IMG/VR virus record: IMGVR_UViG_3300015181_000003
Coordinates: 1 to 43,728 of that record
Source of the DNA: a virus
Taxonomy: Duplodnaviria > Heunggongvirae > Uroviricota > Caudoviricetes
Direction: 5' to 3' (one strand)
DNA length: 43,728 nt
The notes below the pieces were generated by a model, which saw nothing but the letters and a program-made list of their open reading frames with translations, ran no database searches and was not told the origin of the DNA. Below are positions 9,783-32,069 of this stretch, piece by piece. A program made the translations under genes and the position numbers. How positions within the stretch are numbered: the stretch's first letter is position 1; the number at the start of each line of letters is the position of its first letter.

Positions 9783-10100
9783 GTTTCTCCTTTCTCGATA
9801 AGTAAAGCCCCGCCTTAAAGCGGGGTGCTAGTCCTTATCATTTAAACATAGAAACGGCGTAATCTCAGTAAACCAGTTACTTTTTACACAAGCAATAGAC
9901 TATGGCCCTTCCGAACGCGTCAGCGTAACTACACTCAGGACTTACGTCCCGCTCCGTTACCTGCCCGCGCCGCGGTCGCTTGTTCATACTTCACAAGCTC
10001 AGGTGGAGCTTAGCATATTTTTAGTGAAAAGTCAACTATTCGAATAGTTTATTCCAACATTTACAATTCGGTGGAATAACTGGAATAATCACAGGCACTA

Positions 10101-17011: not shown

Positions 17012-17157
17012 TTCTTCTCTCCTGCATAAGCTGCTTTCAGTGCCTTCATCGCCGCAGCCCAGAACGAGTCCGCAGGAATGCTTCCACCAAGGTTGCTAAC
17101 GGCAATGCGCGCCATCAGTTGCGCGTCTTCGAATGCTTCGGTATCTGTGATTTTCAT
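17008..17157 (-). CDS. hypothetical protein (49 aa)
   Basis: Not in the track; ATG with AAAGGAG SD; first well-supported gene downstream of the promoter at about 17265..17293. Confidence 0.3.
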
Positions 17158-17264
17158 TTTCCAAACACTCCTTTAGTTTTCAGATTATTGCGGTAGAACT
17201 GCATCACATGTTCGTTATGGAAGTTACTCATCTTCTCTACTCCGTTCTCGTTGTCGATGAAGTA

Positions 17265-17293
17265 AATATAATAGGGTCTAAGGTAATAGTCAA
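17265..17293 (-). promoter_or_regulatory. sigma70-like promoter (TTGACT-17-TATATT) for the small-gene operon
   Basis: Minus strand reads TTGACT, 17-nt spacer, TATATT; lies between a strong terminator and the first small ORFs. Confidence 0.45.
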
Positions 17294-17313
17294 CTAGTCA
17301 TTACAGAAAATAG

Positions 17314-17347
17314 ATAAAAAAAATCCCGGCTGGGTCAGGGCCGGGAT
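17314..17347 (-). terminator. strong rho-independent terminator
   Basis: Stem TCCCGGC / GCCGGGA with 9-nt loop followed by U8 on the minus strand. Confidence 0.7.
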
Positions 17348-17379
17348 AAAACTGGAGAGCAGAGGGATGGAACAGGAGG

Positions 17380-17481
17380 TGTTAGGCGAGTAGTCAACTA
17401 GGGTCTGCCGGGCGAGCCGGAAAGTCACCGTGTGAGTCGCGTACTCACTCCCGCTAATTTAACGGTTCACTACTCGCCTAA
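17380..17481. repeat. perfect 14-bp inverted repeat enclosing two internal hairpins (candidate structured RNA or protein site)
   Basis: GTTAGGCGAGTAGT at about 17380..17393 is the exact reverse complement of ACTACTCGCCTAAC at about 17468..17481; inside are a CCGG / CCGG stem and a GTGAGT / ACTCAC stem. Confidence 0.5.
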
Positions 17482-17518
17482 CTAAGTATCGTCGGATTAG
17501 TCTCAGGTGTCAATTGGT

Positions 17519-17552
17519 AAAATAAAACCCGGATTAGCGGTCCGGGTTTTGA
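17519..17552. terminator. rho-independent terminator (bidirectional) downstream of endolysin
   Basis: Stem AACCCGGA / TCCGGGTT with loop TTAGCGG; T/A-rich runs on both sides. Confidence 0.6.
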
Positions 17553-17678
17553 TCATAAGCCCCTGAACCCTACGCAGTCTCCACCGCTTGGGCTGCTGCT
17601 TCTGGTTTACCAGGGCTTAGTATGCAAATACGAAAAACTTGGCCTAACGATAATACTAAACGCCTTCGTATTCGTCCA

Positions 17679-18164
17679 TCATTTAACTGCCCTCCCAATA
17701 GCCTCCGCCTCCTGCCACGGTTTGCCGTCGAATAGCGCCAGACGACCGGCGGTACGACGACGCAGGCCAAGTAACGGTTTGCCGTTCTGGTTGATGAACA
17801 GCGCCAGCTTAGCCCGCAGTGTCACAATATCCCCAGAACGCAGCGCCTTGCCCGTGCCAGTAGTAGCCGCAATCACACCAGCACCCGCGTTATACACCAG
17901 GTCACACACTGCATCAAACTGTTCCTGTGTAAGTGAATGGTGCGCTGCTGCGTCAACCGCAGCTACTGCCTTAGCCATATCACGATTCAGTAGCAGGAGT
18001 CCCTGCCCTGGCGTGATGGTCTTGCCTGGTGTTACGTCCGGCCCGTAGTGCCCGTACCCAATAGTCAGGTACTTCTCGTTCGACGTAGCGCGATATGCAG
18101 TGCCGCGGAATCCCTCGAATGCAGCGGTAAAATGCAGCCCATTATCTGAAATGTTTCGAGACAC
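17679..18164 (-). CDS. endolysin (phage lysozyme, GH24-like)
   Basis: 161 aa with FEGFRGTAYRATSNEKYLTIGYGH lysozyme signature. Confidence 0.85.
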   Translation of the reverse strand: MSRNISDNGLHFTAAFEGFRGTAYRATSNEKYLTIGYGHYGPDVTPGKTITPGQGLLLLNRDMAKAVAAVDAAAHHSLTQEQFDAVCDLVYNAGAGVIAATTGTGKALRSGDIVTLRAKLALFINQNGKPLLGLRRRTAGRLALFDGKPWQEAEAIGRAVK

Positions 18165-18414
18165 GCTTATGTCCTCCGTATGCCAGCCACGCCTGACGAA
18201 TCTGGCGCAGCGCGACTAATGTGATTAATGTCTCAGGCAACGTCGGGGACATGCTGCCCTGTAACAGGTGGATGCATCCGGCAGCGCAGACGATAGCTGT
18301 CAGGATATAAAGAACCCGACCAAATAATCCGTCGTCAACGCTGGGGTGATACACATTAAACAGCGATGTGCCTCCGATTGCCAGCATACCGCCGAACCAG
18401 AATAGCTCATTCAT
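18142..18414 (-). CDS. holin/antiholin-like membrane protein (90 aa)
   Basis: Internal ATG with GAGGAGG SD; two predicted TM helices; between the holin-like gene and endolysin. Track ORF extends to 18567 in a frame overlapping the holin. Confidence 0.4.
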   Translation of the reverse strand: MNELFWFGGMLAIGGTSLFNVYHPSVDDGLFGRVLYILTAIVCAAGCIHLLQGSMSPTLPETLITLVALRQIRQAWLAYGGHKRVSKHFR

Positions 18415-18715
18415 CTGGGCCTCCTCGACGTGCAATGTATTCTCCGGCGACGATGCCAGAAAGACGGGAATAGATAGGCATCCAGAGAATGGCGATGATG
18501 AAGCCCAGGCCCGCGATTTCACGGTCGCCCGTGATACCAAACCATTGAGCGGCAAGAGGTGCGCCAAATACGGCGCAGGTGAAGCCGGTTACAATAAAGA
18601 ATAAGCCGTCGATGGGACCAGAAATAACGGACTTATGTTGTCGTAGTCCGATTACCCCTCCGGCTAGTGCGGCAGCGAGAAGCCAGCCTGTCACTGTTTC
18701 AGTAAATTTATCCAA
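18407..18715 (-). CDS. holin-like membrane protein (102 aa)
   Basis: Multiple hydrophobic helices and a charged C-terminus; immediately upstream of the endolysin block. Confidence 0.45.
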   Translation of the reverse strand: MDKFTETVTGWLLAAALAGGVIGLRQHKSVISGPIDGLFFIVTGFTCAVFGAPLAAQWFGITGDREIAGLGFIIAILWMPIYSRLSGIVAGEYIARRGGPDE

Positions 18716-20667: not shown

Positions 20668-20952
20668 TTATTGGTGTTTGTATTGTTGCATCTCCTGCAG
20701 CGCGGAGAATGCTTCAATAACTCCGTTAGCCTTTAGCCAGTGGTACACGAACACATCGCTCGGAGACGGCGCTCCAAGAATCCCGACGATATTTAGGTGT
20801 GACACTAACCCTTCAATTTCGCGCATGGAATAAATATCATGCGAACGACCGCTTTCAAGGGTTAGTGTCGCGTCACTGAATGGCGTGCCGTCGGTATGAC
20901 CTACGCCTGTCATGAAGCCGCGTAAGAATTCTATCTTCTCTCTGTCTGTCAT
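20668..20952 (-). CDS. hypothetical protein (94 aa)
   Basis: Track ORF; ATG preceded by a GGAGA SD. Confidence 0.45.
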   Translation of the reverse strand: MTDREKIEFLRGFMTGVGHTDGTPFSDATLTLESGRSHDIYSMREIEGLVSHLNIVGILGAPSPSDVFVYHWLKANGVIEAFSALQEMQQYKHQ

Positions 20953-25563: not shown

Positions 25564-25593
25564 TTGACAACATGAATAGCTAGCTATTATAGT
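25564..25593 (+). promoter_or_regulatory. sigma70-like promoter with embedded palindromic operator
   Basis: TTGACA at 25564..25569, TATAGT at 25588..25593 (18-nt spacer); spacer contains perfect palindrome AATAGCTAGCTATT. Confidence 0.5.
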
Positions 25594-27928: not shown

Positions 27929-27957
27929 TTGACACCTGAATAGTTAGCTATTATAGT
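27929..27957 (+). promoter_or_regulatory. sigma70-like promoter with embedded operator
   Basis: TTGACA at 27929..27934, 17-nt spacer containing GAATAG-N4-CTATTA, TATAGT at 27952..27957. Confidence 0.5.
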
Positions 27958-31770: not shown

Positions 31771-32069
31771 CACCGGAAGGCAAGATTCAGAAATACGCAA
31801 AAGAGCGATTCGAGGCCATTGGTGGCCTCGTCCGTAAGCTGTCATACGAAAACAGACGCGCGGCAATGGACCTGTTAGTGGTTCTCCCCCGCGGCGTCAT
31901 CTGGTTCGTCGAGGTCAAGAAAGACGGGAACACGAAGCCAGACCCGCACCAGCTACGGGAACATGAGAGATTCCGAAAACGTGGAGCTAATGTTTTTGTC
32001 GTTGGTTCGTTCAAACAGGTTGACGACCTAATAGCAGACTATTATAGTAGTCATACACCAACAATATAA
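31767..32069 (+). CDS. VRR-NUC domain nuclease
   Basis: 100 aa with DLLVVLPRGVIWFVEVKKDG...FRKRGANVFVV pattern recalled from the VRR-NUC family. Confidence 0.6.
   Translation: MTPEGKIQKYAKERFEAIGGLVRKLSYENRRAAMDLLVVLPRGVIWFVEVKKDGNTKPDPHQLREHERFRKRGANVFVVGSFKQVDDLIADYYSSHTPTI

What the first reader, a model, noticed from the sequence alone, without database searches (positions are those of the whole stretch)
17314..17552. Structured noncoding block between lysis genes and the small-gene operon
Within about 240 nt are a strong terminator (17314..17347), a perfect 14-bp inverted repeat enclosing two inner hairpins (17380..17481, about 100 nt), and a second terminator (17519..17552). The central element is larger and more elaborate than a terminator. 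It does not fold as a tRNA by eye. It could be a small RNA, a replication or packaging site, or a protein-binding site.
Basis: seen in the sequence. Interest (0 to 1): 0.5.

Follow-up and report, generated by a model that had tools for sequence, protein, structure and literature searches.

The report
Orphan palindromic insert in phage control region
The two "terminators" are ordinary, conserved transcription stops of a K1G-like E. coli phage. The elaborate 100-base hairpin between them is a rare insertion found in only two known phages, sitting at the start of a conserved short transcript, so it is an accessory passenger and not a core phage element.

Summary
The window is a Kagunavirus (K1G-like siphophage), and all local genes are on the minus strand. 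T1 (17347..17315) and T2 (17550..17517) are intrinsic terminators for that strand.

The central 102-nt element (17381-17482) has a 14-bp perfect inverted repeat, and its RNA fold has z about -4.8. It is a clean insertion: 4 nt are replaced, for a net gain of 98 nt. It is absent from 48 of 50 distinct versions of this region and from all but one of 445 matching phage records. Only phage EC3-1 shares it, at 101/102 identity, although the two genomes are about 86% identical overall.

No copy was found in E. coli genomes, plasmids, GTDB genomes, IMG/VR or JGI metagenomes. There is no target-site duplication, no Rfam match and no tRNA.

The insert lies between the -10 box and the leader of a conserved, unannotated promoter, P_A (TTGACA-17-GATACT). 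The hexamers and 17-nt spacing are fixed while the spacer sequence varies. In all relatives P_A precedes a pyrimidine-rich, anti-Shine-Dalgarno-like leader that ends at T1.

Best reading: an orphan, recently spread palindromic insert, co-transcribed as a 5'-terminal hairpin on that short RNA. It is not an essential small RNA, origin or packaging site. Interest is modest. The conserved P_A-leader-T1 unit is the more interesting lead.

The parts
17517..17550 (-). T2. Intrinsic terminator behind the endolysin gene: AAAACCCGGA / TCCGGGTTTT stem followed by ATTTTAC. It belongs to a roughly 165-bp 'long-type' extension (17514-17678) that only some relatives have.
   Evidence: Present in XY1, K1G, Golestan, L009, L015 and others. 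Absent in short-type relatives (22664BS2, ZCEC5, Jersey, EC3-1), where the endolysin stop codon overlaps the TTGACA of P_A.
17485..17513 (-). P_A. Conserved sigma-70-type promoter: TTGACA (17513..17508), 17-nt spacer, GATACT (17490..17485). Not annotated in the related records inspected.
   Evidence: 10 of 12 consensus positions; in 50 distinct versions TTGACA occurs 48/50, GATACT 48/50 and a 17-nt spacer 50/50, while the spacer sequence occurs in 22 variants of three deeply different classes. P_A is one of only two strong promoter-like sites on the minus strand of the whole window.
17381..17482 (-). 102-nt palindromic insert. It has 14-bp perfect terminal inverted repeats (GTTAGGCGAGTAGT / ACTACTCGCCTAAC) and a structured 74-nt interior. 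It replaces the 4 nt AATC of the empty site.
   Evidence: Searches give the empty versus filled sites (unit length 283 nt versus 183-189 nt); only EC3-1 shares it, at 99.2% identity; no other copy anywhere; fold z about -4.8.
17348..17380 (-). Conserved pyrimidine-rich leader: ACCUCCUGUUCCAUCCCUCUGCUCUCCAGUUUU. It is predicted to be single-stranded. CUCCUG is invariant across the subfamily.
   Evidence: conservation; no consensus pairing. (unpaired with or without the insert); together with T1 it weakly resembles the anti-SD sRNA family RF02278 (25 bits, gathering score 50).
17315..17347 (-). T1. Conserved intrinsic terminator (ATCCCGGC / GCCGGGAT plus T8). It ends the lysis operon in short-type relatives and would also end the P_A transcript.
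   Evidence: Annotated as a terminator in phage Schulenburg; 8 pairs, one with a compensatory C-G to U-A change in 6 Jersey-group sequences and one G-C to G-U change.
17265..17293 (-). P_B. Early-operon promoter TTGACT-17-TATATT, with an invariant TAGTTGACTA.
   Evidence: Annotated as a promoter in Salmonella phage Jersey KF148055.
17154..17231 (-). First gene of the small-gene operon: a 25-aa homolog of T4 Stp. It is context only and not part of the element.
   Evidence: (PF08133, 70 bits, E 1e-19).
17679..18164 (-). Endolysin, the upstream neighbour and last gene of the lysis cassette.
   Evidence: PF00959. Annotated as endolysin in XY1 and EC3-1.

Best explanation
The block is the main minus-strand control region of a Kagunavirus genome. 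Reading the minus strand, it runs: lysis genes, terminator T2, promoter P_A, a short pyrimidine-rich leader, terminator T1, promoter P_B, then the early small-gene operon, which begins with an Stp-like peptide.

The elaborate central element is not part of that conserved design. It is a 102-bp non-coding palindromic DNA segment that was inserted 2 nt downstream of the P_A -10 box. It replaced 4 nt of the empty site and left no target-site duplication. It has since spread, by recombination within the conserved block or by re-insertion, into at least two otherwise divergent Kagunaviruses.

Shown: it is an insertion, it is rare, it is nearly identical in two divergent genomes, it has no detectable relatives elsewhere, and it folds far better than shuffled sequence.

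Inferred: transcription from P_A starts near 17478-17479, inside the 5' arm. The element would then be copied into RNA as a 5'-terminal hairpin of about 96 nt with an 11-bp closing stem. This hairpin would be fused to the unchanged single-stranded CU-rich leader and to T1, giving a roughly 165-nt RNA in place of the roughly 68-nt RNA of relatives.

Its most likely effect is neutral, or modulatory through stabilisation or RNase III processing of that short RNA. It is dispensable for the phage.
For: Identity of the window: Kagunavirus, ENA contig ERZ27315466:k141_25491.

Insertion:
- Alignments of filled and empty sites.
- 48 of 50 distinct units are 183-189 nt long; the only two of 283 nt are the window and EC3-1.
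- 115 phage records carry the empty junction, and none matches a hypothetical TA-duplication empty site.

Rarity and orphan status.

Recent spread: the window and EC3-1 align over 76% of the genome at a mean of 86% identity, yet the element is 101/102 identical, and the genes on both sides of the shared block differ.

P_A is a real promoter: hexamers and spacing are fixed while the spacer turns over, and it is one of only two strong minus-strand promoters in the window.

T1 is a real terminator: compensatory change and an annotation in Schulenburg.

Fold of the predicted chimeric RNA: 5'-terminal hairpin, 36 unpaired nt, then T1. The RNA from an empty site is shown.

Dispensability of this neighbourhood: natural deletion of T2 and P_A in L060.

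No coding capacity, no tRNA and no Rfam family.
Against: - No transcript data exist, so the P_A start site and the RNA itself are predictions.
- There are only two copies, differing at a single loop position. No covariation test of any structure is possible.
- The perfect 14-bp arms and the strong fold could reflect selection for a function and not just the origin of the DNA.
- The donor and the insertion mechanism are unidentified.
- The two carriers differ at a spacer position 16 nt from the insert. This requires either a very close crossover or independent site-specific insertion, and the latter would argue for an active targeting mechanism that I have not explained.
- The database scans of GTDB, IMG/VR and JGI required exact pattern matches, so diverged relatives could have been missed.
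Confidence: 0.55

Rival explanations
1. It is a genuine non-autonomous transposable element (MITE- or REPIN-like), mobilised in trans by a transposase or RAYT of a host or co-resident element that recognises the 14-bp terminal inverted repeats.
For: About 100 bp long, non-coding, with perfect terminal inverted repeats and hairpin-forming potential. The insertion has sharp boundaries in an AT-rich site, TTAAAT. It is near-identical in two divergent genomes.
Against: - There is no target-site duplication, and 4 nt are lost at the site.
- It occurs as a single copy per genome.
- No copy was found in 5,426 E. coli genomes, 72,556 plasmids, 50,697 phage records, GTDB species genomes, IMG/VR or JGI metagenomes.
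- No transposase is annotated in EC3-1.
Confidence: 0.15
2. It is a functional RNA module, for example a structured small RNA, a decoy against a host defence, or a put-like cis-acting element that changes how RNA polymerase from P_A treats T1. On this view the two phages acquired it as a beneficial cassette.
For: It is placed directly after a strong conserved promoter and ahead of a terminator. The fold is very stable (z -4.8) and leaves the conserved leader unpaired. Its 99% identity across genomes that are 86% identical overall is compatible with selection. The slot also hosts other non-coding inserts in relatives.
Against: - No Rfam family matches, even at E<10.
- No covariation is available.
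- It is absent from about 98% of relatives, which have the same promoter, leader and terminator.
- The flanking conserved block is itself about 96% identical between the two carriers, so the high identity needs no special selection.
- No significant complementarity to the phage's own transcripts was found.
Confidence: 0.2
3. It is a DNA-level site: a replication origin, a packaging site, or the binding site of a protein.
For: Inverted repeats can bind dimeric proteins or extrude as cruciforms. The region is a mosaic junction in this phage family.
Against: - It is missing in nearly all relatives, which replicate and package with homologous machinery.
- It has no iterons and no AT-rich unwinding region.
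- The arms are 74 bp apart.
- The motif does not recur elsewhere in the genome.
Confidence: 0.05
4. It is an assembly or sequencing artefact, such as a chimeric hairpin.
For: The window is a metagenome-assembled contig.
Against: The same 102 nt sits at the same junction in an independently sequenced cultured phage from another source, EC3-1 (PQ571288), with one substitution.
Confidence: 0.02

Closest known systems
MITEs and REPINs (miniature inverted-repeat transposable elements; REP doublets forming hairpins). Properties cited from general knowledge.
   Same: About 100 bp, non-coding, with terminal inverted repeats. Folds into a long hairpin when transcribed. Intergenic, with presence/absence polymorphism between close relatives.
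   Different: No target-site duplication. Single copy, with no family in any searched genome collection. No cognate transposase or RAYT found. It resides in a virulent phage and not in a bacterial chromosome.
PeSL composite terminator/promoter cassettes of T4-like phages (PMC4122927, PMC2839356)
   Same: The conserved block around the insert (T1 hairpin plus early promoters) is a short terminator/promoter composite. It sits exactly where otherwise unrelated modules are joined: five different upstream contexts all meet at the TTGACA of P_A, and the first early gene downstream also varies.
   Different: It occurs once per genome, not as a repeated motif. It is in a siphophage subfamily. It contains an additional promoter-leader unit, P_A. 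The 102-nt insert itself is not a PeSL.
Anti-Shine-Dalgarno small RNAs such as Rfam RF02278 (Betaproteobacteria toxic sRNA). This comparison applies to the conserved P_A-leader-T1 unit.
   Same: A short RNA with an unpaired C/U-rich (CCUCC) stretch followed directly by an intrinsic terminator. It is the best, though weak, Rfam resemblance (25 bits, E 0.005-0.008).
   Different: The score is half the gathering threshold of 50, so it is not a member. Expression and targets are untested. In the window the RNA would carry the extra 5' hairpin.
5'-terminal stabilising stem-loops (e.g. the ompA 5' UTR) and RNase III hairpins between phage genes (T7 R sites, lambda sib). Cited from general knowledge.
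   Same: A long, nearly perfect stem that begins at or next to the predicted 5' end of a transcript.
   Different: There is no evidence of processing or stabilisation here. The 14-18-bp stem is at the short end for RNase III substrates.
HK022 put RNA (cis-acting antiterminator made of two stem-loops just downstream of a promoter). Cited from general knowledge.
   Same: A promoter-proximal structured RNA placed upstream of a terminator that precedes an operon.
   Different: No sequence or structure model was available for testing. The element is not conserved in relatives that share the same promoter and terminator. A second promoter, P_B, already serves the operon.

Membership tests
MITE | Short (<~500 bp), non-coding, with terminal inverted repeats | tested here: met
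   102 bp with 14-bp perfect terminal inverted repeats. The only ORF is a 44-codon GTG frame that runs through T1 and has no ribosome-binding site.
MITE | Target-site duplication flanking the element | tested here: not met
   Empty site GATACTTA-AATC-ACCTCC versus filled site GATACTTA-[102 nt]-ACCTCC. There is no direct repeat and 4 nt are replaced. No relative carries the empty site predicted by a TA duplication.
MITE | Multiple copies, or a family sharing ends with an autonomous IS | tested here: not met
   One copy in the window. No match in E. coli genomes, plasmids or phages. No match in GTDB, IMG/VR or JGI by exact-pattern scans. Diverged copies could have escaped the exact-pattern scans.
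REPIN / REP-RAYT system | Two inverted REP units forming a hairpin, present in tens to hundreds of copies in a genome that encodes a RAYT | tested here: not met
   The hairpin form is present, but no other copies occur in any collection searched. The RAYT partner was not testable.
Intrinsic (Rho-independent) terminator (T1, T2) | G+C-rich hairpin followed by a U-run on the transcribed strand, at the end of a transcription unit | tested here: met
   T1 shows a compensatory change and is annotated as a terminator in Schulenburg. The tool's strict consensus scan did not list either hairpin: T1's 9-nt loop exceeds its 3-8 limit, and I infer that T2 was missed because its T's fall within the stem. 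Termination in vivo is not testable here.
Sigma-70 promoter (P_A, P_B) | -35 and -10 hexamers at 17-nt spacing, conserved independently of the spacer sequence | tested here: met
   P_B is annotated in Jersey. Transcription start sites are not testable here.
Any Rfam RNA family (including RF02278, C4, Y RNA, ribozymes, riboswitches) | Score at or above the family's gathering threshold | tested here: not met
   No hits at gathering thresholds over the whole window. At E<10 nothing covers 17381-17482. RF02278 scores 25 bits against a threshold of 50 on the leader plus T1.
tRNA / tmRNA | Cloverleaf detectable by ARAGORN | tested here: not met
   no genes in the window.
PeSL-type promoter/terminator shuffling cassette | Composite stem-loop plus early promoter, repeated at the borders of variable gene cassettes | tested here: inconclusive
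   The composite, and its position at a mosaic junction, are met. Repetition within the genome is not met.
Conserved structured RNA (general) | Covariation supporting the helices across homologs | not testable with these tools
   Only two copies exist. They differ at one position, in the loop of an inner hairpin.

The most novel reading that the evidence does not exclude
Guernseyvirinae phages may make, from the unannotated strong promoter P_A, an abundant short early RNA whose single-stranded anti-Shine-Dalgarno-like leader acts on ribosome-binding sites or on an RNA-binding host factor. In Kagunavirus the leader reads AUCACCUCCU, identical to the 3' end of 16S rRNA, and CUCCUG is invariant. 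The 102-nt element would then be a previously undescribed phage-borne palindromic element that targets the first transcribed bases of this unit, adding a protective or functional 5' domain.
Probability: 0.15. Interest if true: 0.6.

Novelty: new member of a known kind. Interest (0 to 1): 0.33.

Why it matters
For the finding as given, the value is mostly clarification. The conspicuous hairpin is an accessory insertion, not a conserved small RNA, origin or packaging site, and the two terminators are routine.

Two points could matter beyond that.

1. Small non-coding palindromic insertions are rarely documented in virulent phage genomes. This one has a cultured carrier (EC3-1) and many natural insert-free relatives, so its effect could be measured directly.
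2. The analysis exposes a conserved, unannotated promoter-leader-terminator unit at the main mosaic junction of an entire phage subfamily, one used in phage therapy work. This is a concrete candidate for an early phage small RNA and for a recombination linker sequence.

Tried and rejected
- tRNA or tmRNA: none found.
- Rfam at gathering thresholds and at E<10: nothing on the element.
- Donor search with BLAST (word size 11) in phages, plasmids and E. coli genomes: only EC3-1.
- Exact-pattern scans for the inverted-repeat pair (28, 24 and 20 specified bases) and for the interior (19 and 24 bases) in IMG/VR, GTDB and JGI: nothing. The exceptions were two GC-rich contigs with unrelated AGTAGGCGAGTAG low-complexity palindromes, which I rejected as spurious.
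- TA or TTAA target duplication: rejected, because no relative has the predicted empty site.
- Derivation from the phage's own sequence: the best internal matches are 11-13 nt (CTAGTTGACTA, shared with the P_B -35 region) and are not significant.
- Promoter inside the element: none found.
- Coding capacity: none credible.
- Partner transposase in EC3-1: none annotated, only an HNH endonuclease elsewhere in the genome.
- Recovering more carriers through exact-protein look-ups of four neighbouring genes in ENA, Logan, JGI and NCBI: dozens of contigs, none with the element except the window's own contig.
- Target prediction for the CU-rich leader against the window's transcripts: no convincing site.
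- Literature search for Kagunavirus or Jerseyvirus small RNAs or transcriptomes: nothing found.
- CRISPR-repeat, retron, hammerhead, CRP, DnaA and IHF resemblances were considered by eye and dropped as unsupported.

Full report
**Context.** The window is a complete-length Kagunavirus contig (K1G-like siphophage of E. coli, Guernseyvirinae). It is ENA record ERZ27315466:k141_25491, and its closest records in this region are 94-98% identical.

Every gene around the finding is on the minus strand:
- two holins and the endolysin (18715..17679, PF00959);
- the non-coding block;
- a run of small genes (an Stp-like peptide, a 49-aa ORF, DUF2737, a NinH-like protein and others);
- the terminase and the structural genes.

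The block therefore has to be read on the minus strand.

**Check of the observation.** The three features exist at the stated coordinates.
- T1 is an 8-bp GC-rich stem (17323-17330/17340-17347) followed on the minus strand by eight T's.
- T2 is a 10-bp stem (17524-17533/17541-17550) followed by ATTTTAC.
- Both fold better than shuffled sequence, with z about -4.
- The central element has perfect 14-bp arms at 17381-17394 and 17469-17482, extendable to 18 bp with one mismatch.
- It is the longest spaced inverted repeat in the window.
- It folds at -45.5 kcal/mol as sense-strand RNA, z -4.83.

The 'two inner hairpins' are the plus-strand fold. The sense-strand optimum pairs the interior differently, and nothing available can decide between the two.

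**What the central element is.** BLAST of 17250-17620 against 50,697 phage records gave 445 matching records, but none covered the middle of the query.

Alignment with XY1, K1G-type, Golestan, 22664BS2, ZCEC5 and many metagenomic relatives shows a clean presence/absence difference. Read on the minus strand:
- relatives read GATACTTA-AATC-ACCTCCTG;
- the window reads GATACTTA-[102 nt]-ACCTCCTG.

I collected 50 distinct versions of the region from INPHARED, IMG/VR, ENA, Logan, JGI and NCBI. In 48 of them the unit from P_A to the first gene is 183-189 nt. It is 283 nt only in the window and in Escherichia phage EC3-1, PQ571288. EC3-1 carries the same 102 nt with one substitution, in a hairpin loop.

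The element has no other match anywhere:
- not in phages, plasmids or 5,426 complete E. coli genomes, using BLAST with word size 11;
- not in IMG/VR, GTDB species genomes or JGI metagenomes, using exact-pattern scans;
- the two JGI hits are unrelated GC-rich low-complexity palindromes;
- it is not derived from the phage's own sequence.

It matches no Rfam family even at E<10, it is not a tRNA, and it has no credible ORF. There is no target-site duplication, and no relative has the empty site that a TA duplication would predict.

The window and EC3-1 are different species-level genomes: 76% aligned at a mean of 86% identity. They carry different endolysin alleles and different first early genes. 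Yet they share the roughly 290-bp block at 95.6% identity and the element at 101/102. The element has therefore been exchanged recently, riding on the conserved block or re-inserting at the same site.

An artefact is excluded, because EC3-1 is an independently sequenced cultured phage.

**What surrounds it.** The comparison shows that the conserved part of the block is a compact regulatory unit, whereas everything upstream of it is mosaic.

Five unrelated upstream contexts all join the conserved sequence exactly at the TTGACA at 17513:
- the short endolysin end, whose stop codon overlaps TTGACA;
- the T2-bearing extension seen in the window;
- a 25-aa ORF;
- a 33-aa membrane-peptide ORF;
- a different non-coding insert of about 125 nt.

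From there the order is as follows.
- TTGACA-17 nt-GATACT. The hexamers are kept in 48/50 versions and the spacing in 50/50, while the spacer has 22 sequence variants in three deeply divergent classes. This is the classic signature of a functional sigma-70 promoter, which I call P_A.
- A leader of about 36 nt that is pyrimidine-rich and predicted to be unpaired. CUCCUG is invariant and CAUCCCUCU is nearly so.
- T1, with one compensatory C-G to U-A pair in the Jersey group. It is annotated as a terminator in phage Schulenburg.
- P_B (TAGTTGACTA...TATATT), annotated as a promoter in phage Jersey.
- A conserved leader and ribosome-binding site.

P_A and P_B are the only two strong promoter-like sites on the minus strand of the whole genome.

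In Kagunavirus the leader begins AUCACCUCCU. From general knowledge, this equals the 3'-terminal anti-Shine-Dalgarno sequence of 16S rRNA. The leader plus T1 is the only part of the block with any Rfam resemblance: RF02278, an anti-SD 'toxic' sRNA, at 25 bits against a threshold of 50. That makes it an analogy, not a membership.

One relative, L060, has lost T2, P_A and the 5' part of the leader through a deletion between ATCCCT repeats. The unit is therefore not strictly essential.

**How the element most likely works.** The insert lies 2 nt downstream of the P_A -10 box, so the predicted start (about 7 nt downstream of the -10, near 17478-17479) falls inside its 5' arm.

The predicted transcript has three domains:
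- a 5'-terminal hairpin of about 96 nt, closed by an 11-bp perfect stem that begins at the first nucleotide;
- the unchanged 36-nt single-stranded CU-rich leader;
- T1.

Insert-free phages would make a roughly 68-nt RNA consisting of the leader and T1 only.

The insert has no U-tract after its stem on either strand, so it is not a terminator. It contains no promoter.

I therefore commit to this reading: an orphan palindromic insertion, co-transcribed as a 5' hairpin. It is neutral, or it modulates the stability or processing of the P_A RNA. General knowledge about 5'-terminal stem-loops and RNase III hairpins supports this, but it is an inference. The element is dispensable for the phage.

Confidence is about 0.55, because there are no expression data and no covariation.

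**Rivals.**
- A true MITE or REPIN (0.15). The form fits, but the target-site duplication, multicopy family and transposase tests fail.
- A functional RNA module such as a decoy, a regulator or a put-like antiterminator (0.2). The position and fold fit, but there is no family, no conservation and no covariation.
- A DNA-level origin, packaging site or binding site (0.05). The distribution contradicts this.
- An artefact (0.02). EC3-1 excludes it.

**Comparison with known systems.** The insert looks like a MITE or REPIN but cannot be filed as one.

The conserved block behaves like the PeSL terminator/promoter cassettes, which act as recombination linkers in T4-like phages (PMC4122927, PMC2839356). 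Here, however, it is single-copy and includes an extra promoter-leader unit.

The terminators and promoters are ordinary members of their classes.

**Verdict.** The finding is real but mostly ordinary. It consists of two routine terminators, two conserved promoters, and a rare accessory palindromic insertion of unknown origin.

The small-RNA idea is only indirectly supported, through the conserved P_A-leader-T1 unit that the insert interrupts. That unit, and the fact that a palindromic element landed precisely on its first transcribed bases in two divergent phages, are the parts worth an experiment.

Noticed in passing
window 17154-17231 (-): The first ORF after promoter P_B encodes a 25-aa peptide, [25 protein letters not shown]. 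It matches Pfam PF08133 (anticodon nuclease activator, the T4 Stp family) at 70 bits, E 1e-19. It is not among the genes called on the source contig, so it is easily missed. It suggests the small-gene operon is an early anti-defence operon.
   Followed up: partly
window 17315-17513 (-), and the same region in loci L001-L069: A promoter-leader-terminator unit conserved across Kagunavirus and Jerseyvirus: P_A TTGACA-17-GATACT, a CU-rich unpaired leader with invariant CUCCUG, then T1. In Kagunavirus the leader starts AUCACCUCCU, identical to the 16S rRNA 3' end. It is a candidate early small RNA and is not annotated as a promoter in the related records inspected.
   Followed up: partly
L061:1350-1478 (also L017, L034, L042): Some relatives carry a different non-coding insert of about 125 nt between T2 and P_A. 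One helix shows an apparently compensatory change (GAGGG/CCCTC versus GCGGG/CCCGC). It has no Rfam match, and the overall fold is not significant (z -1.4).
   Followed up: partly
L060 (Logan SRR30978873), region homologous to window 17370-17650: A natural deletion between two ATCCCT repeats removes T2, P_A and the 5' part of the leader. This shows that part of the block is dispensable in at least one assembled genome.
   Followed up: no
window 17514-17678 and homologous regions of L012, L033, L036, L044, L046, L056, L060, L065: The stretch between the endolysin and P_A is a hot spot for tiny alternative ORFs: an 8-aa MMDEYEGV in the window, a 33-aa hydrophobic peptide MTE(I/F)DF..., and a 25-aa MALQEFTNPVKSRDDIDESIGYGEG. 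The stop codons of the 25-aa ORF, of one version of the 33-aa ORF and of the short endolysin allele overlap the TTGACA of P_A.
   Followed up: no
window 20801-20816 / 20854-20869: The second-longest spaced inverted repeat in the window (16 nt, 94% complementary, 37-nt loop). It lies inside the 94-aa minus-strand ORF 20668..20952.
   Followed up: no
window 25564-25593, 27929-27957, 32020-32048 (+): Three of the five strong sigma-70-like promoter matches on the plus strand (the two others, at 10060 and 10993, fall under minus-strand ORFs). Each of the three sits in an intergenic gap of the replication module.
   Followed up: no
L003:4462-4550 and L004:317-412 (JGI contigs JAABUM010000422, JAABUN010000675): GC-rich bacterial contigs contain intergenic palindromes built from AGTAGGCGAGTAG-like repeats. 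They matched the search pattern by chance and are unrelated to the phage element.
   Followed up: no
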